IMG/VR virus record: IMGVR_UViG_3300024259_001450
Location: 1 to 60,075 of that record
Length of the DNA stretch: 60,075 bases
Strand: one strand, 5' to 3'
Source: a virus
Taxonomy: Duplodnaviria > Heunggongvirae > Uroviricota > Caudoviricetes
Part shown: one piece after another, positions 28,425 through 34,754 of the stretch
Layout of the letters: every line of letters begins with the position of its first letter
Position numbering within the stretch: the first letter of the stretch is position 1
Position numbers and translations under genes: made by a program
The notes under the pieces: generated by a model
The model's input: only the letters and a program-made list of their open reading frames with translations
The model's database searches: none
Told to the model about the DNA's origin: nothing

Positions 28425-28883
28425 ATGCTTGAATTTCCAAAGTGGTTTGATAATGTAATGCATATGTTGGATTGCCCGCATTGTCATAAAGACTTGAAAA
28501 AACCACATATTATGGCGGAAGGCATTAGAAAGAGTTTGGCTTCTAAAGGTGAAACTGCTTTTTTCATTGAATATAAATGTCCTGACTGTAATAGTGTAAC
28601 TACAATGGAATTAACTCCAATGACGTTATCAGATTTTGTCATGGAAATGCTTGACAAATTTACTGATGACGATTATAAGGAAGAAGATTCCGAAAATAAA
28701 AAAGCTACAAAAAAGAAGAAAACTCGTAGATCGAAAATAACTGTTAAAGAAATCGCAGAAGCCAAAAAAATATTCAATGGTTGTGAAACATGGGATGAAA
28801 TGATGGAAGCAGTTGGTATCACAGAAGAACAAAAACAGGAATGGTATGACGAATATGAAAAACAAGAGAAAGATAATAAATAA
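28425..28883 (+). CDS. Zinc-ribbon protein
   Basis: CPHC ... CPDC; RBS GGAG. Confidence 0.65.
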   Translation: MLEFPKWFDNVMHMLDCPHCHKDLKKPHIMAEGIRKSLASKGETAFFIEYKCPDCNSVTTMELTPMTLSDFVMEMLDKFTDDDYKEEDSENKKATKKKKTRRSKITVKEIAEAKKIFNGCETWDEMMEAVGITEEQKQEWYDEYEKQEKDNK

Positions 28884-29992
28884 TGTTTAAAGTCAGTGAT
28901 TTTAAATTACCAACAGCATTTATAAAAAAAGCGTGTTATTCTTCACATTGTGTATTTGTCGATTTGCCAGTTGTTTTTGAGTATGCTGATGAAAACCATC
29001 GTCATCCTATGTATCATAATGGCGAATTGTATATAGGTGAAACAGAATTGCTTGGGGATACTTTGTCGCGTATTATAACTGCATATCTGTTAAACTTTAA
29101 AGAAATTACAGGTGAGAATATTCCATGCTGTGAAGATTTAATGCAAAGAACCATTATATATGTAAATAACTTTTTTAGGTTTTTGTGCTTTTATCAGGAC
29201 TCATTCAGTGAGGCTAAGGACGATGCCGCGAATGCTTTGCGATTGTATCAGAAACCTTTTGTGTGGTTGATAATGAAAGATATTCTAGCACCGGCATTTG
29301 ATGAAATTGTCGCTAAAAACTGCAAGATAGTCGAAGGGCACTCTAACTGTGTAGACGCGGCGTTGTTTGTAAGCGAAGAAGAGTACAGTCGTTACGATGA
29401 CTCTGCTGGCGTTTTAGATGAGCCGTTTGTCTTTGTGAATACAGACATAGAATACGAGCCTTATTCTGCCGCTCACTTGCTTGTAGAGGCGATTAAGTGT
29501 GAAGGTGAATGTCCTGTTAGTATAATGGAAAAAGTATTTACATCGTCTTTGTATGACAAGTTGGTTGGGTTGACTAAATTGGCATTTAAATCCGATAAAG
29601 AAGTAAATGATTTTTTCTTGTGTTTGATGACGATATGCGGTTTTGATAATCAGTCGCATTTATTTATCCAAGAGGCTGTTGACGAACATGTTAAAACTGC
29701 ACAAGCCACTGGTCAGCATGGCGGAAATCAGTATCAAGATATTAGTGATACATGGTGGTTCTTAGGTCTTATAGAGAAGATGTTAGAACCAGCCAGAGGG
29801 CCAGATTGGAGTACACATAAGAGACTGCAACCGTTTTTGGAAAAGTTGTGGAATAAAATCAATAAGGAACGTAAAAAACGAGGACGAGATGGGCTTACTT
29901 ATGAGGCTTTATTGAGAATCAAAGATGGTGAAATTGATCCTGATAAGGTATTTATCTTAGAAAGAGAATTAGATTCTAATAGAACGTGGTAA
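28883..29992 (+). CDS. Hypothetical protein
   Basis: 369-aa ORF coupled by a TAATG overlap; no recognised motif. Confidence 0.6.
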   Translation: MFKVSDFKLPTAFIKKACYSSHCVFVDLPVVFEYADENHRHPMYHNGELYIGETELLGDTLSRIITAYLLNFKEITGENIPCCEDLMQRTIIYVNNFFRFLCFYQDSFSEAKDDAANALRLYQKPFVWLIMKDILAPAFDEIVAKNCKIVEGHSNCVDAALFVSEEEYSRYDDSAGVLDEPFVFVNTDIEYEPYSAAHLLVEAIKCEGECPVSIMEKVFTSSLYDKLVGLTKLAFKSDKEVNDFFLCLMTICGFDNQSHLFIQEAVDEHVKTAQATGQHGGNQYQDISDTWWFLGLIEKMLEPARGPDWSTHKRLQPFLEKLWNKINKERKKRGRDGLTYEALLRIKDGEIDPDKVFILERELDSNRTW

Positions 29993-30307: not shown

Positions 30308-30509
30308 TAATTTCGAAAAGTTGGCTGCTAATTGGGACGATCAACCCAATTTCCATACTCCTAGATATCAAAAGGAGCAAGGGCAATATATGTACTATGC
30401 AGGCGGCGATGGGAGTCCTGATGGCGAGGACGAAATCGAAAAACGATGGGGCAAGGATAAGAAGAAAAAGAAAAAACGAAGAAAGAATAAAAAGAAGCAT
30501 AAGGAGTGA
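30288..30509 (+). CDS. Small protein with a highly basic C-terminus
   Basis: Ends KDKKKKKKRRKNKKKHKE; overlaps both neighbours in operon style. Confidence 0.55.
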   Translation: MKIIKTNNFEKLAANWDDQPNFHTPRYQKEQGQYMYYAGGDGSPDGEDEIEKRWGKDKKKKKKRRKNKKKHKE

Positions 30510-33265
30510 TGTTCCCAAATCAACAATTATTAACTCTGGTTGTGACCAATAATAGCACATTCGTAGAAGGTGTTATTAAATCAGAGGTTTACAAGGGTCT
30601 TAAAAAAACACTGCGTTTTCAGCCAGAAGATGCGTTTTTTAAAGCTAAACACATCAAAAGCAAAACTAATTGGCAATGGGATGGATTTGTCTACTTAATT
30701 TGTCGCAGTAAAGGGTACTGTAAGTGTGAAATCAAAAAAGATGGTGTCCATTTTCCAACAGGACTATACAGTAGAGTTGTAAAGTTCTTTAAAGATAACT
30801 CTATTCCATATAACACATTAGACAAGAGACACATGCCAGATAAAGATTTGTCATTAGACATGTCTGGAGAATGTGAATATAGGGACTATCAAGAAAAGTT
30901 CGTTAATGCATGTGCGGAGCGAGAAAGAGGTTTGGGACAAGCGTGTACTGGTAGTGGAAAAACTTTTATGGGGGCGAAATTAATTCAGATGCTAGGGGTT
31001 GCTCCGTTTATATTCTATGTTCCCTCAATTGATTTATTGAAACAAACAAAAGATGAATTTGAAAGATTCTTATCCAAAAATGGGAAAAAAGCCAAAATAG
31101 GTATGATTGGCGACGGTGTTTTTGATCCTCAAGATATTACCATAATGACAATTCAGACTGCTGTTACTGCTTGTGGTCTTGAGTATGTCAAATATGATGA
31201 GGAAGACAAGAATAAAAGCGACCACACACTAGATGAGAAGCGTAGAGAAATTCTGGATTTAGTTATGTCGGCTAAAGGTATCATTTGTGATGAATGTATC
31301 ACCGGAGATTCTATTGTTTTTGTTAAAAAGTATGGATATGTAAAAACGGAAGAGTTAAAAAACTTTATTGGGGAGGAGATACTTAGTTTTAATGGTACTA
31401 GTGTTGTGTGGGAAAAGATCACATGTTTTATGGATAAAGGAAAAAGAAATTTAATAGAAATTAAGTTTAATTCCGGAAAAAAAATAAAATGCACAAAAAA
31501 TCATTTGATAAAAACCAGAAAGGGATGGATTCAAGCGGGAAATTTGAAAAAGAAAGATTTAGTTTTATCTGTTGTAAATGCGGATGCGGAAAAAAGATTG
31601 ATGTTAGCGGAAGAAGTCCAAGCAAATATCCAAAATACATTCTTGGACACCAGATTAAAAAGAGAAATAAAGATCAGTGGAGAGAAATCTTTAAAAGGCT
31701 TAATCAGGACGCTCCACTCTGTCAGTGTGGATGTGGGAAGAAAGTTGCATTGCGATATAAAACTTTGGAATCTTTTATCAAAAACAAAGGTAATAAAAAA
31801 TATAGAAAATATATTTATGGGCATGATAAAAGACCAAGCGAATGGGGACTTGAACTTAATTTACAAGAAAAACAGTCAATTTTTGGGACTCTTCTTGGAG
31901 ATTCTTCAATGTGCTTTCCAAGTACGAGAAGTAAAAACCCAAGATTGTCATGTAATCATGGATTGGTTCAAAAAAAATGGTCTGAACATAAATCATCGTT
32001 TTTACATAGATTGTCTCCATATGGAAGAATATATAAAAACGCTGGGTATGGCGAAGAAAGTATTTCTTTCCATACAAGATGCTTGCCGTGTCTTCATGAA
32101 ATATATAAATATATGTATGTTAACAACAAAAAGATTGTTAATCAAAAATGGCTTGATGGTATCGGAGAAATTGGATTGGCGTGGTGGATATGCGATGATG
32201 GAAGCAATAACAATGGATTGCTTAGATTCCACACAGAAGGATACTCTCTTGAAGAAAATAAACTCATTTCACAGTGGTTTTGCAGAAAATATGGAGATGT
32301 TTGTATTAGACCATCTAAGGGAAAATACTATTATATTGAATGTAGAGCAAAAACTACTAGAAAAATATTTGAAATTGTCTCAAAACATATTCCAGGGTGC
32401 ATGTCTTACAAAATACGATGAAATCGTATCTATTGTAGATATCGATAAAGACAATGTTTACGACATTACAGTAGAAAATACCAATTGTTTTTTTGCCAAT
32501 GGCTTACTAGTTCATAATTGTCAGCATTGGGCCTCTAAGACGTGCCAGGTGATTTCTGACTATTCTGTGTCGGCTCGTTACAAGTATGGTTTTAGTGCCA
32601 CTGTTTATCGAGACAAGAATGATGATATCCTTATCGATTCGTGTTTTGGTAAAGTAATTCAAAATATCACTGCTTCTTATCTAATTGATAGGGGGTATTT
32701 AGTCCCCCCAACTATTAATTTTGTGCCCATAGGTAAAGGGAATACCAATGGTCGTACATATCAAACAATTTATAAAAATCATATAGTTAATAACACAGAA
32801 AGAAATAACTGTATTGCGAATGTGGCTGCTGGTTTTGAAAAACAAGGTATGACTACTCTTATATTGGTTAGACAAATTTCACATGGAAAAATATTAGAAA
32901 AATTAATTCCAGATAGTTATTTCATACATGGAACACACTCAAGTAAACAGAGAAAGAAGCATTTAGACCTAATGCGTTCGGAAAAAGCACCAGTTACTAT
33001 CGCTAGTACGATTTTTGATGAGGGGATAGATTGCAGACCATTAAATGCTTTGATTCTAGCAGGATCAGGAAAAAGTCAGACTAGAGCGTTACAAAGAATT
33101 GGCAGAACGCTAAGGCCATATACGGATGAATTCGGTAATAAGAAGCTCTTTTCTACTGTGGTAGACTTTGTGGATAAGTATAAGTACCTACAAAGTCATA
33201 GCAAAAAAAGAAGAGAGATATACGAAACAGAGCCAAGATTCACCGTCAAAGAATTGAAGGTATAA
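30506..33265 (+). CDS. Superfamily 2 (UvsW/ResIII-like) DNA helicase containing an intein
   Basis: Q motif YRDYQ, Walker A ACTGSGKT, Walker B ICDE-[intein]-CQH, FSAT, IFDEGIDC, QRIGRTLR. Confidence 0.92.
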   Translation: MMFPNQQLLTLVVTNNSTFVEGVIKSEVYKGLKKTLRFQPEDAFFKAKHIKSKTNWQWDGFVYLICRSKGYCKCEIKKDGVHFPTGLYSRVVKFFKDNSIPYNTLDKRHMPDKDLSLDMSGECEYRDYQEKFVNACAERERGLGQACTGSGKTFMGAKLIQMLGVAPFIFYVPSIDLLKQTKDEFERFLSKNGKKAKIGMIGDGVFDPQDITIMTIQTAVTACGLEYVKYDEEDKNKSDHTLDEKRREILDLVMSAKGIICDECITGDSIVFVKKYGYVKTEELKNFIGEEILSFNGTSVVWEKITCFMDKGKRNLIEIKFNSGKKIKCTKNHLIKTRKGWIQAGNLKKKDLVLSVVNADAEKRLMLAEEVQANIQNTFLDTRLKREIKISGEKSLKGLIRTLHSVSVDVGRKLHCDIKLWNLLSKTKVIKNIENIFMGMIKDQANGDLNLIYKKNSQFLGLFLEILQCAFQVREVKTQDCHVIMDWFKKNGLNINHRFYIDCLHMEEYIKTLGMAKKVFLSIQDACRVFMKYINICMLTTKRLLIKNGLMVSEKLDWRGGYAMMEAITMDCLDSTQKDTLLKKINSFHSGFAENMEMFVLDHLRENTIILNVEQKLLEKYLKLSQNIFQGACLTKYDEIVSIVDIDKDNVYDITVENTNCFFANGLLVHNCQHWASKTCQVISDYSVSARYKYGFSATVYRDKNDDILIDSCFGKVIQNITASYLIDRGYLVPPTINFVPIGKGNTNGRTYQTIYKNHIVNNTERNNCIANVAAGFEKQGMTTLILVRQISHGKILEKLIPDSYFIHGTHSSKQRKKHLDLMRSEKAPVTIASTIFDEGIDCRPLNALILAGSGKSQTRALQRIGRTLRPYTDEFGNKKLFSTVVDFVDKYKYLQSHSKKRREIYETEPRFTVKELKV
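31295..32518 (+). mobile_element. Intein (408 aa) in the helicase Walker B motif
   Basis: Block A CITGDSIV, block B CTKNHLI, blocks F/G VYDITVENTNCFFANGLLVHN, followed by Cys+1. Confidence 0.93.
31489..32421 (+). CDS. LAGLIDADG-type homing endonuclease with two CxCGCG zinc-binding repeats, nested out of frame inside the helicase intein
   Basis: SIFGTLLGDSS and GLAWWICDDGS LAGLIDADG helices, LRFHTEGYSLEEN, terminal IPGCMSYKI. Repeats CKCGCG..YILGH and CQCGCG..YIYGH. Frame is -1 relative to the helicase. Confidence 0.85.
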   Translation: MHKKSFDKNQKGMDSSGKFEKERFSFICCKCGCGKKIDVSGRSPSKYPKYILGHQIKKRNKDQWREIFKRLNQDAPLCQCGCGKKVALRYKTLESFIKNKGNKKYRKYIYGHDKRPSEWGLELNLQEKQSIFGTLLGDSSMCFPSTRSKNPRLSCNHGLVQKKWSEHKSSFLHRLSPYGRIYKNAGYGEESISFHTRCLPCLHEIYKYMYVNNKKIVNQKWLDGIGEIGLAWWICDDGSNNNGLLRFHTEGYSLEENKLISQWFCRKYGDVCIRPSKGKYYYIECRAKTTRKIFEIVSKHIPGCMSYKIR

Positions 33266-33342: not shown

Positions 33343-34236
33343 ATGATCCAAGAAGATAAAATTGAAGATTTATTGGTTGGTGCTGTTAAAACAGCTAAGA
33401 AAAAGACAGCCAGAAAAAGTCCAAAAGAGATTTTGGCAAACAATACGTACACCGTTAAAAACTCTAAAGTAGAGAAAGAAAGCGGTGCCGAATTGGTAGA
33501 TTTTTCTGAAAGGAAAAGAACATATCAACCTAAATCTGACGACTTGCTTGAATGGAGTAATAGAGATTTCTCTCTATACATTAAAAATAAATATCGAAAA
33601 AGATATTCTTCTCATTGGAGTCCATCTATACCGTCTATCACATTGCGACTCAATAATATCAAAGAGGTTATTGATGATTTGGTAGGTTTCTGTGACAACA
33701 TAACTTTCAAAGACTATATAGATTTCTTTTTCTCTGAATGGGCAGATTATTGGCGTTCAAAGAATAAAGGAAAAGTCTTGTATCTAACTGTTTTTTATGA
33801 TAAGCAATCGGTAAAAGATTTTGCATCAAAATATGACTATCAATCCAGTGTAAAAAACTATTTGAATGATAATAAGACTGAAGCGGATTCGCCTAAGATG
33901 TTATCGCTTTCTAATAAAATGATGGAACAGTCCCATTTGCTTGGGATATCTAATTTGGTTGAAGAATATGGTATCATTTTGTCTGCCAATTGGCTAATAT
34001 ATAAACGTAATTATGACGGCGATGATGTTATAAAACAGATGCATAAAGCATTATTGTCGTTACACAAAAAAAAGATATTGTCAAAAGCTATCGAAGCTAC
34101 TGAGAAATATTCGCCTTATCCAAGTCGGTTTTTGTTTAAGGACATTAATTCTCTTGGTGTTGATATAGTATGCAATATAGATTGGGTAGATTCACGAGAA
34201 TGTTTGGATTTTCTAAAGGAGCTACATGGAAAATGA
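33343..34236 (+). CDS. Hypothetical protein
   Basis: 297-aa ORF with an upstream GAGGAG; no recognised motif. Confidence 0.6.
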   Translation: MIQEDKIEDLLVGAVKTAKKKTARKSPKEILANNTYTVKNSKVEKESGAELVDFSERKRTYQPKSDDLLEWSNRDFSLYIKNKYRKRYSSHWSPSIPSITLRLNNIKEVIDDLVGFCDNITFKDYIDFFFSEWADYWRSKNKGKVLYLTVFYDKQSVKDFASKYDYQSSVKNYLNDNKTEADSPKMLSLSNKMMEQSHLLGISNLVEEYGIILSANWLIYKRNYDGDDVIKQMHKALLSLHKKKILSKAIEATEKYSPYPSRFLFKDINSLGVDIVCNIDWVDSRECLDFLKELHGK

Positions 34237-34754
34237 AAAAGTTTGAAAAAAGAGCAACCTTAAATGAGAGTATCAGAAGTCGTCAAGTTCATTTGATCGA
34301 TGAGCAAGGCAAAGATCACGGTAAAATAACGCGAGAACAAGCCTTGGATTTGGCCGCTACAAGAGAACTTGATTTGTGGCAAGTCAATACAGATGATGTT
34401 CCTATCTGCAAATTGGTCGATTATGGTAAAATGATGTACGACAAGGCCAAAAAAGCCAAAGCGAATAAACATCAACATAAGCACGTTTCTGTGAAAGAAA
34501 TAAGAACTAGATATAAAACTGATACTCATGATTTACAAAGGAAGCATAAAAAGGTAGCAGAGTTCATCAAAGAAGGTCATAAGGTCAATTACCGCATGAA
34601 GATAAGAGGTCGTGAACGTCTTATGTGGAAAGAGGCTTTTATCAAATTCAATGAGGCTTTGGAAGATTTTGCAGATATAGCTACTTGGAGTCCTCCAAAA
34701 AAGGACGAAGGAAAGAATGCTAATATCGTAGTGGTTTTGAAACCTAAAAAATAG
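34233..34754 (+). CDS. infC: Translation initiation factor IF-3
   Basis: LNESIRSRQVHLIDEQGKDHG..EQALDLA..LDLWQV..PICKLVDYGKMMY..VKEIR..HDLQRK..FIKEGHKV..IRGRE. Start placed at the ATGA overlap at 34233. Confidence 0.92.
   Translation: MKKFEKRATLNESIRSRQVHLIDEQGKDHGKITREQALDLAATRELDLWQVNTDDVPICKLVDYGKMMYDKAKKAKANKHQHKHVSVKEIRTRYKTDTHDLQRKHKKVAEFIKEGHKVNYRMKIRGRERLMWKEAFIKFNEALEDFADIATWSPPKKDEGKNANIVVVLKPKK

What the first reader, a model, noticed from the sequence alone, without database searches (positions are those of the whole stretch)
31295..32518. Intein whose homing endonuclease is encoded in an alternative reading frame (about 930 nt dual-coding)
Seen: the helicase frame runs without a stop through a 408-aa intein with intact splicing blocks. 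The roughly 280 in-frame residues between the N-terminal Hint part (..KKKDLVLS, about 31570) and the C-terminal part (YDEIVSI.., about 32413) contain no nuclease motif and read like off-frame text. The -1 frame (31489..32421) encodes a coherent endonuclease: two CxCGCG..GH repeats, then LAGLIDADG helices GTLLGDSS and AWWICDDGS. Its recognisable domains start where the Hint N-part ends, and its TGA falls where the Hint C-part begins. Known: intein endonucleases are normally in-frame domains of the intein. Inference: the endonuclease gene is overprinted at the intein's tolerant insertion site, is made as a separate protein, and its off-frame translation is kept stop-free and removed by protein splicing. 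About 280 stop-free off-frame codons in very AT-rich DNA is hard to attribute to chance or to assembly frameshifts. This is the best candidate here for an undescribed system.
Basis: partly seen in the sequence, partly recalled or inferred. Interest (0 to 1): 0.93.

Follow-up and report, generated by a model that had tools for sequence, protein, structure and literature searches.

The report
Helicase intein with overlapping endonuclease gene
A large phage's helicase gene carries a self-splicing intein whose middle 0.9 kb is also read, one base out of register, as a separate homing-endonuclease gene. The double coding is real and kept by selection, but it belongs to an already described kind: it is a phage relative of the cyanobacterial DnaX intein.

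Summary
The helicase ORF (30506/30509..33265) runs open through a 408-aa class-1 intein (31295..32518). A 310-aa ORF in the -1 frame (31489..32421) is an I-SceI-like LAGLIDADG_2 endonuclease (Pfam E 6.5e-27).

- **Not chance:** synonymous shuffles expect about 13 stops in the helicase frame; there are none (0 of 20000 shuffles).
- **Which frame is selected:** against the nearest relative, substitutions fall on third positions of the helicase frame in the Hint parts. In the centre they fall on third positions of the endonuclease frame.
- **Structure:** the in-frame centre (intein residues 96-369) has no confident fold. The endonuclease models at pLDDT 89.
- **Conservation:** 63 distinct sequences share the layout, including cultured Xanthomonas phage FoX3.
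- **Relatives:** some sit in fractured (split-intein) helicase genes, and one is a free-standing gene beside an intein-less helicase.
- **Prototype:** element and endonuclease are homologous to the cyanobacterial dnaX intein with an out-of-frame endonuclease (E 2e-48).

The kind is therefore known (Gorbalenya 1998 as cited; preprints of 2025 and 2026). This is a new member, in a phage SF2 helicase. Earlier notes show this scan has met the same kind on other DNA. Splicing, separate translation and cleavage remain inferred.

The parts
30509..33265 (+). SF2 (DExH) DNA helicase gene, precursor with intein. The likely start is ATG 30509, preceded by AAGGAG; the mechanical ORF starts at GTG 30506.
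   Evidence: ORF. ResIII, Helicase_C and phrog_16 'DNA helicase'. SD upstream of 30509.
31295..32518 (+). Class-1 intein, 408 aa, inserted in helicase motif II (Walker B) between DE and CQH
   Evidence: Pfam Intein_splicing 68 bits against a cut-off of 35.8. Boundaries. C1, T67, H70, H407 and N408 invariant in 7 relatives.
31295..31579 (+). Hint N-terminal part (intein residues 1-95), including block B TxxH at 31493..31504
   Evidence: pLDDT about 90. Substitutions against L005 fall on helicase-frame position 3, 26 of 44 in the non-overlapped part. 39% identity to the dnaX intein Hint-N, E 3e-21.
31580..32401 (+). In-frame 'shadow' linker (intein residues 96-369): stop-free helicase-frame reading of the endonuclease gene, with no fold of its own
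   Evidence: pLDDT below 50 throughout. No Pfam nuclease family. 49% identity to L005 against 72% in the other frame; substitutions fall on helicase-frame position 2.
32402..32518 (+). Hint C-terminal part (intein residues 370-408), ending in HN before Cys+1
   Evidence: pLDDT about 90. 18 of 24 substitutions on helicase-frame position 3.
31489..32421 (+). Homing endonuclease gene in the -1 frame, 310 aa, I-SceI-like LAGLIDADG_2. ATG 31489 overlaps the Lys-Cys codons just before block B.
   Evidence: Pfam PF03161 E 6.5e-27. phrog_11023. Model pLDDT 88.9. Foldseek I-WcaI and I-SceI, E about 1e-12.
31525..31527 (+). Second possible start codon of the endonuclease (residue 13), and the only upstream start open in the Tolypothrix dnaX homologue
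31573..31650 (+). First CxCGCG...GH module of the endonuclease (residues 29-54); putative Cys3-His zinc module, function inferred
   Evidence: Sequence. Also present in the dnaX homologue.
31720..31824 (+). Second CxCGCG...GH module (residues 78-112)
   Evidence: C78, C80, G81, C82 and H112 are at least 90% conserved in 36 sequences.
31873..32364 (+). LAGLIDADG_2 core (residues 129-292). Motif helices lie at 31879..31908 (GTLLGD) and 32173..32205 (AWWICDDG).
   Evidence: Pfam range. G137, D138, A231, D236, D237 and G238 invariant in 36 sequences.
31477..31484 (+). A8 run in the helicase frame, a candidate -1 slippery site; not conserved in relatives
   Evidence: Sequence. Absent in the nearest relative L005; a heptamer in a comparable place in only 16 of 64 loci.

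Best explanation
This is a contiguous, dual-coded ('non-canonical') intein.

**Proposed mechanism**
- The phage's SF2 helicase is translated as a precursor of about 918 aa.
- Its intein consists of a 134-aa Hint splicing domain (residues 1-95 and 370-408). This domain is interrupted by 274 unstructured residues.
- Those residues are simply the helicase-frame reading of a nested gene.
- The Hint domain splices the whole 408-aa insert out and rejoins motif II (DE-CQH), giving a helicase of about 510 aa.
- The nested gene lies one base out of register. It encodes a 310-aa I-SceI-like LAGLIDADG endonuclease with two N-terminal CxCGCG..GH modules.
- It is translated on its own at a low level from ATG 31489 (or 31525) inside the Hint-N coding region.
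- The endonuclease cuts intein-less helicase alleles at or near the motif II coding site. Repair then copies intein plus endonuclease gene into them (homing).

**Constraint on the DNA**
Selection on the essential helicase keeps the host frame free of stops. It does so by excluding NTA-R and NTG-A codon pairs in the endonuclease gene.

**Family**
The element belongs to one family. That family also occupies the Walker B site of cyanobacterial dnaX, and it has fractured (split-intein) and free-standing relatives.

**Shown here**
- both ORFs
- selection on both frames
- the predicted folds
- the homology
- patchy distribution with empty sites

**Inferred**
- splicing
- internal initiation
- the cleavage target
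- homing
For: **Domains.** Splicing and helicase families lie in one frame and LAGLIDADG_2 only in the other.

**Stop avoidance.** Zero stops against 13 expected, 0 of 20000 shuffles. Across 63 distinct homologous sequences the host frame has zero stops in every one, against a median expectation of 6.1; the third frame has a median of 21. Split-gene relatives (Ymer, AN_ECEAS, L014, L016) and a free-standing relative (L017), which lack the constraint, carry 10-17 stops in that frame.

**Frame-specific selection.**
- Window against L005: 76% nucleotide identity and no indel in 1224 nt.
- Third-position bias follows the helicase frame in Hint-N (26/44) and Hint-C (18/24), but the endonuclease frame in the centre (111/206).
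- Amino-acid identity is 72% in the endonuclease frame against 49% in the helicase frame.
- The same holds in 10 pairs (1144 of 2136 differences at endonuclease position 3).

**Folds.**
- The endonuclease model has pLDDT 88.9 with only residues 1-21 disordered.
- Its best matches are I-WcaI and I-SceI, TM 0.75.
- The catalytic Asp columns are invariant.
- In the in-frame intein model only residues 1-95 and 370-408 are confident.

**Splicing residues** are invariant.

**Same site and layout elsewhere.** FoX3, 9 IMG/VR loci and 66 of 71 metagenome and genome loci.

**Homology to the dnaX intein.** Endonuclease E 2e-48 over its full length, Hint-N E 3e-21.

**Mobility.** Of 9 distinct orthologous helicases in related large phages (54-68% C-extein identity), 2 carry the element. 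7 have an uninterrupted DE-CQH, DE-VQH or DE-IQH site.

**Start.** An ATG at the Cys-Thr of block B, with GGAG or GGA about 10 nt upstream, recurs across the family.
Against: - There is no direct evidence of translation of either product, of splicing or of cleavage.
- The window's endonuclease start has only GGA 11 nt upstream, whereas 24 of 38 long ORFs of this phage have a clear SD. Expression may therefore be very low, or may use another route.
- The true start (31489 or 31525) is unresolved.
- A 274-residue unstructured insert in an essential enzyme's precursor is a burden that has not been shown to be tolerated in this phage.
- One relative (L025) has a stop in the endonuclease frame while the helicase frame stays open. 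Endonuclease decay therefore occurs, and activity in any single genome is not guaranteed.
- Reads of this assembly could not be inspected.
Confidence: 0.85

Rival explanations
1. The endonuclease is not made from an internal start. It is made by programmed -1 ribosomal frameshifting on the A8 run (31477..31484) or the A6 run (31495..31500). The product would be a fusion of the helicase N-extein, part of Hint-N and the endonuclease.
For: A_AAA_AAA lies in the helicase frame just after the -1 frame opens at 31471, and both ATGs have weak or badly spaced SD motifs.
Against: The A8 run is absent from the nearest relative L005. A slippery heptamer in a comparable place occurs in only 16 of 64 loci, mostly AT-rich ones and at varying positions. 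The ATG at block B, with GGAG or GGA about 10 nt upstream, is widespread by contrast. Fractured relatives encode the endonuclease as a separate ORF starting at the same ATG. A-runs are expected in Lys-rich coding DNA of 33% GC.
Confidence: 0.06
2. The nested ORF is conserved but no longer drives homing. It has been co-opted (for example as a DNA-binding regulator or a factor that excludes competing phages), or the element is fixed and inherited vertically.
For: Purifying selection shows function but not which function. The extra CxCGCG..GH modules are not part of the nuclease core. Within the HEG tree the helicase-borne copies group together rather than mixing with other host genes.
Against: The catalytic Asp columns are invariant. 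The element is patchy among close helicase orthologues with intact empty sites. The same element occupies unrelated host genes at Walker B sites. A decayed copy exists, as the homing cycle predicts.
Confidence: 0.07
3. The layout is an artefact: a chance open frame, or an assembly with two compensating frameshifts around an ordinary in-frame endonuclease.
For: A single metagenome assembly whose reads were not inspected.
Against: 0 of 20000 shuffles are stop-free. 63 distinct sequences from independent assemblies, isolate cyanobacterial genomes and cultured phage FoX3 share the layout. There is no indel against L005 over 1224 nt.
Confidence: 0.01

Closest known systems
Cyanobacterial DnaX intein with an out-of-frame LAGLIDADG endonuclease (Ssp DnaX; Gorbalenya 1998 'Non-canonical inteins' as cited in the preprints; Phillips, DeSimone and Gogarten, bioRxiv 10.64898/2026.09.14.751524)
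   Same: - Contiguous class-1 intein at a Walker B DE|C-H site.
- The endonuclease lies on the same strand in the same relative frame, with an unstructured in-frame centre.
- It is homologous in sequence: endonuclease 33% identity over its full length including both CxCGCG..GH modules (E 2e-48), Hint-N 39% (E 3e-21).
- The frame-specific selection pattern matches the one that preprint reports.
   Different: - The host gene is a phage SF2 helicase, not dnaX, and the host is a large phage, not a cyanobacterium.
- In the one dnaX locus examined (Tolypothrix, L075) the block-B ATG is followed by in-frame stops, so only the second ATG can serve as a start.
- The preprint does not mention helicases and states that the source of the endonuclease could not be found.
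Actinobacteriophage non-canonical inteins (Gosselin, Arsenault and Gogarten, bioRxiv 10.1101/2025.01.02.630785)
   Same: Phage inteins whose endonuclease is encoded in a frame other than the extein frame. The in-frame region has no recognisable structure. The authors propose an origin by invasion of an intein by a free-standing endonuclease gene.
   Different: There the same-strand out-of-frame case is an endonuclease VII-like gene, and the LAGLIDADG and Vsr-like cases are antisense. The hosts are DNA polymerase, minor capsid, terminase and thymidylate synthase. Here the case is a same-strand I-SceI-like LAGLIDADG_2 gene in a helicase.
Fractured genes: split intein with a free-standing endonuclease gene between the halves (Dassa et al. 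2009, PMC2677866)
   Same: Relatives of this very endonuclease sit between split-intein halves of the same helicase at the same DE|C site (Ymer, AN_ECEAS, L014, L016). The endonuclease 3' end overlaps the downstream intein part, as in 15 of the loci in that paper.
   Different: In the window the helicase frame is not broken. The paper's endonucleases are GIY-YIG and Vsr-like, and LAGLIDADG is not mentioned. In the passages I retrieved, its model offers fracture or in-frame insertion and does not show a contiguous out-of-frame state.
Canonical bifunctional inteins with an in-frame LAGLIDADG domain (PI-SceI and PI-PfuI type; Pfam LAGLIDADG_3)
   Same: A Hint domain with an endonuclease at the same insertion point between the N and C splicing parts, and the homing logic.
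   Different: The nuclease is not part of the intein polypeptide, and it belongs to the intron or free-standing I-SceI family (PF03161), not PF14528. The nearest relative's helicase (L005) carries a second, canonical intein with in-frame LAGLIDADG_3 in the same gene, which shows the contrast directly.

Membership tests
Class-1 intein (Hint splicing domain) | N-terminal Cys/Ser, block B TxxH, C-terminal His-Asn followed by Cys/Ser/Thr | tested here: met
   C1, T67, H70, H407, N408 and Cys+1 are present, and invariant in 7 aligned relatives.
Class-1 intein (Hint splicing domain) | Hint fold and family profile | tested here: met
   Pfam Intein_splicing 68.2 bits against a cut-off of 35.8. The model is confident (pLDDT about 90) for residues 1-95 and 370-408, and all beta.
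Class-1 intein (Hint splicing domain) | Protein splicing actually occurs | not testable with these tools
   Inferred from the intact residues and from a host-frame-open layout at helicase motif II that is conserved in many relatives.
Non-canonical, dual-coded intein of the DnaX type | Host frame uninterrupted, with no in-frame nuclease domain | tested here: met
Non-canonical, dual-coded intein of the DnaX type | Complete endonuclease ORF in another frame of the same strand between the Hint parts, under purifying selection, with the host frame stop-free beyond chance | tested here: met
Non-canonical, dual-coded intein of the DnaX type | Sequence homology of Hint and endonuclease to the dnaX element | tested here: met
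   E 2e-48 and 3e-21 against Tolypothrix dnaX locus L075, whose host ORF Pfam identifies as DNA polymerase III gamma/tau.
Non-canonical, dual-coded intein of the DnaX type | Endonuclease translated as a separate protein | not testable with these tools
   Only the conserved ATG and SD-like context and the separate ORFs in fractured relatives bear on this.
LAGLIDADG_2 (I-SceI-like monomeric homing endonuclease) | Family profile, two LAGLIDADG helices with acidic catalytic residues, I-SceI-like fold | tested here: met
   PF03161 95 bits against a cut-off of 25. D138 and D236/D237 invariant in 36 sequences. Foldseek I-WcaI 6x1j and I-SceI 1r7m, E about 1e-12, target TM 0.73-0.75.
LAGLIDADG_2 (I-SceI-like monomeric homing endonuclease) | Site-specific cleavage of the element-free allele | not testable with these tools
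   Candidate empty sites were found in orthologues L090-L094, L097 and L098.
Fractured gene with split intein (Dassa 2009) | Host gene broken into two ORFs, each carrying one intein half | tested here: not met
   The window's helicase frame is continuous. Relatives Ymer, AN_ECEAS, L014 and L016 do meet it.
Canonical bifunctional intein (in-frame endonuclease) | Nuclease domain in the intein's own frame | tested here: not met
   No nuclease family in frame, and residues 96-369 have pLDDT below 50.

The most novel reading that the evidence does not exclude
The phage helicase element, the cyanobacterial dnaX intein and a terminase-like intein (L066-L068) may be one old dual-coded mobile element. 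On this reading it hops between Walker B (DE|C) sites of unrelated P-loop NTPases.

The phage helicase lineage is large: 51 of the 63 endonuclease sequences in the tree. It would then be the reservoir from which the dnaX intein's endonuclease came, an origin the 2026 preprint could not trace.

Fractured helicase genes, the free-standing copy beside an intein-less helicase and the contiguous overprinted form would be living stages of one pathway between free-standing endonuclease, dual-coded intein and split intein.
Probability: 0.4. Interest if true: 0.6.

Novelty: new member of a known kind. Interest (0 to 1): 0.45.

Why it matters
The finding does three things.

- **Spread.** It shows that the odd dnaX-type layout is not a cyanobacterial curiosity. 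In the collections searched it is mostly found in phage SF2 helicases (51 of the 63 endonuclease sequences in the tree).
- **Annotation.** Annotation misses it. FoX3 gp40 is annotated only as a helicase, and gene callers recorded few of the nested ORFs.
- **Experiments.** It places contiguous, fractured and free-standing forms of one endonuclease family at one target site. This gives concrete material for testing how free-standing endonucleases enter inteins and how split inteins arise. FoX3, Ymer and AN_ECEAS are cultured phages in which splicing, internal initiation and homing can be measured.

It also adds a well-controlled natural case of about 0.9 kb of same-strand dual coding, in which one frame needs only to stay open.

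Tried and rejected
- **Megablast** of the helicase locus against GenBank phages found nothing.
- **Literature.** A search for 'alternative reading frame' found nothing; other wordings found the prior art. Gorbalenya 1998 could not be read because it is not held, so it is cited only as the two preprints describe it. Searches for FoX3 plus intein, and for non-canonical inteins plus helicase, found no description of the phage helicase element.
- **-1 frameshifting** as the expression route was considered and rated low, because the slippery run is not conserved.
- **Chance and assembly error** were rejected by shuffles and by conservation.
- **Amino-acid-level avoidance** of Met followed by I/M/T/N/K did not discriminate: unconstrained relatives also have 0-1 such pairs. 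The avoidance therefore works at codon level.
- **Direction of evolution.** The tree is unrooted and its deep forks are weak. The direction (free-standing to dual-coded to split, or the reverse; helicase to dnaX, or the reverse) was not decided.
- **First alignment attempt** of helicase-frame DNA used a wrong frame and failed.
Full report
**1. What is there.**
- The window is the first 60 kb of a 188-kb IMG/VR virus record estimated to be 38% complete, so it comes from a very large phage.
- A + strand ORF at 30506..33265 (likely start ATG 30509, behind AAGGAG) carries ResIII and Helicase_C and matches phage 'DNA helicase' families.
- Inside helicase motif II, between DE and CQH, lies a 408-aa intein (31295..32518). 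It has C1, block B TxxH and a terminal HN followed by Cys. Pfam Intein_splicing scores 68 bits against a cut-off of 35.8.
- No nuclease family matches in this frame.
- One base out of register, ORF 31489..32421 (310 aa) matches LAGLIDADG_2 at E 6.5e-27, and also matches a PHROG of LAGLIDADG homing endonucleases.

**2. Not chance and not an artefact.**
- Relative to the endonuclease ORF, the helicase frame has 0 stops and the third frame has 41.
- Recoding the endonuclease synonymously with the phage's own codon usage gives 13.0 stops on average. Permuting its own synonymous codons gives 6.0. None of 20000 shuffles of either kind is stop-free.
- The avoidance is visible at codon level. TTA and ATA occur 7 times, only before codons starting with C or T, and never before A or G.
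- Homologous endonuclease genes that are not overlapped by a continuous host frame carry 10-17 stops in that frame, as many as their own shuffles predict. These are the fractured helicase loci of Pectobacterium phage Ymer, E. coli phage AN_ECEAS, L014 and L016, and the free-standing L017.

**3. Which frame is under selection where.**
- The nearest relative (L005, IMG/VR) is 76% identical over the 1224-nt intein, without a single indel.
- In the Hint-N and Hint-C parts, substitutions sit on helicase-frame third positions (26 of 44; 18 of 24).
- In the centre (31580..32412), 111 of 206 substitutions sit on endonuclease-frame third positions, which are helicase-frame second positions.
- The centre is 72% identical as endonuclease but 49% identical as helicase-frame text.
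- Ten pairs across the family, including two dnaX pairs, show the same pattern: 1144 of 2136 differences at endonuclease position 3, with endonuclease identity always higher.

**4. Folds.**
- With 36 homologues, the endonuclease models at mean pLDDT 88.9. Only residues 1-21, the stretch that overlaps Hint-N, are disordered.
- Foldseek's best matches are I-WcaI and I-SceI (E about 1e-12, target TM 0.73-0.75, rmsd 2.5-3.0 Å).
- The acidic residues ending both LAGLIDADG helices (D138, D236/D237) are invariant.
- Two CxCGCG..GH modules precede the core, and the second is at least 90% conserved. A zinc and DNA-binding role is my inference.
- The in-frame intein model is confident only for residues 1-95 and 370-408 (about 90). 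Residues 96-369 fall below 50 throughout.

**5. The family.**
- tblastn against GenBank phages hit Xanthomonas phage FoX3 under its 'putative DNA helicase' gp40. There the helicase ORF runs through an intein at DE|C..HN|CHH, and a 252-aa endonuclease ORF lies in the other frame.
- Nine IMG/VR loci share the layout, with GC 0.34-0.60 and endonuclease identity 38-71%.
- 66 of 71 further loci from metagenomes and GTDB genomes share it too.
- After removing duplicates, 63 distinct endonuclease sequences all have a stop-free host frame, against a median expectation of 6.1 stops.
- In Ymer, AN_ECEAS and L014 the helicase is instead broken at the same site. The N part with the intein N-half ends inside the endonuclease ORF, and the C part starts near its end.
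- In L016 the three ORFs do not overlap.
- In L017 a 42%-identical endonuclease is free-standing, directly upstream of an intein-less helicase that reads VDECHH.

**6. Link to the published prototype.**
- The genome scan returned Nostocales cyanobacteria.
- In Tolypothrix (L075) the enclosing ORF is dnaX (DNA_pol3_delta2, gamma3), with the intein at Walker B DE|C..HN|CHMLS and the endonuclease in the same relative frame.
- The window's endonuclease aligns to it over its full length, both CxCGCG..GH modules included (33% identity, E 2e-48).
- Hint-N aligns at 39% (E 3e-21). Hint N plus C together are 55/131 identical.
- This is therefore the same element family as the dnaX intein, whose out-of-frame endonuclease is described in bioRxiv 10.64898/2026.09.14.751524. 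That preprint and bioRxiv 10.1101/2025.01.02.630785 attribute the first report to Gorbalenya 1998.
[quoted passage not shown] It proposes invasion by free-standing endonucleases.
- The 2026 preprint never mentions helicases and says the source of the endonuclease could not be found.
- I found no paper describing the phage helicase members.

**7. Mobility.**
- Among 9 distinct orthologous helicases of related large phages (54-68% C-extein identity; L095 is the same contig as L005), two carry the element (L005/L095 and L096), as does the window.
- Seven have an uninterrupted motif II: DE-CQH twice, DE-VQH four times and DE-IQH once.
- One relative (L025) has a stop in the endonuclease frame while its helicase frame stays open.
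- Both observations fit a homing cycle.
- In the endonuclease tree, the helicase copies, the dnaX clade, a terminase-like clade and the free-standing L017 form one group (SH-aLRT 93). The Ymer-type fractured copies lie outside on a long branch.
- The tree is unrooted and its deep forks are weak, so direction is open.

**8. Expression route.**
- The ATG at 31489 overlaps the Lys-Cys codons just before block B (AAA TGC ACA read as ATG CAC).
- The same ATG, giving an N-terminal Met-His, starts the separate endonuclease ORFs of Ymer and AN_ECEAS.
- GGAG or GGA about 10 nt upstream, encoded by a conserved Gly-Glu/Lys of Hint-N, recurs in many loci.
- The window has only GGA at 11 nt, weak for a phage in which 24 of 38 long ORFs have an SD against a 9% background. 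Low expression is likely.
- In the Tolypothrix dnaX locus (L075) the block-B ATG is followed by in-frame stops, so only the second ATG (the window's 31525) is usable there.
That run is missing from L005, and a heptamer in a comparable place occurs in only 16 of 64 loci. I rate this route low.

**9. Verdict.**
- The claim of an undescribed system is not supported. This is a new member, in a phage SF2 helicase, of a known kind, and it is homologous to that kind's prototype.
- Earlier notes show that this scan has already met out-of-frame endonucleases in inteins on other DNA. These include a helicase intein (e1-3897962) and a split helicase at the DECH motif (e1-240054). I did not test those notes themselves.
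- Splicing, internal initiation, the cleavage target and homing remain inferences.

Noticed in passing
L005:1946-6061 (also L023:2030-6247 and L025): The nearest relative's helicase carries a second intein further downstream, with a canonical in-frame LAGLIDADG_3 domain. One gene therefore holds a dual-coded and a canonical intein side by side. L027 has an extra upstream intein with Hom_end_hint and Hom_end.
   Followed up: partly
L066:704-5084, L067:478-3390, L068: A related LAGLIDADG_2 endonuclease, with a long C-terminal Cys-rich and charged extension, is overprinted in the other alternative frame of an intein. The intein sits in a different host ORF at an LD(I/L)DES site. The host matches the terminase GpA ATPase only weakly (E 1e-4, below cut-off). 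The host frame is stop-free over about 1.2 kb.
   Followed up: partly
L015:2281-4797: An 839-aa ORF holds a LAGLIDADG_2 domain in frame (E 3.4e-18), inside a weak Intein_splicing match (26 bits, below cut-off). This may be an in-frame version of the same endonuclease family. It sits on a very long branch in the tree.
   Followed up: partly
L025:3001-3879: The endonuclease frame is interrupted by a stop while the 1370-aa helicase frame stays open. This looks like a decaying endonuclease inside a still-spliceable intein.
   Followed up: no
L017:3501-5875: A free-standing member of the endonuclease family (42% identity) lies directly upstream of an intein-less helicase with an intact VDECHH motif II. 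The layout resembles free-standing endonucleases that target a neighbouring gene.
   Followed up: partly
window 34170-34754: A phage-encoded two-domain translation initiation factor IF-3 (IF3_N E 3e-21, IF3_C E 2e-17) lies just downstream of the helicase region.
   Followed up: partly
window 1-60075: All 38 long ORFs found by a simple scan lie on the + strand. I did not examine them.
   Followed up: no
window 28883-29992 and 33343-34236: The two long ORFs flanking the helicase (369 aa and 297 aa) have no Pfam match at E 0.001 or better.
   Followed up: no
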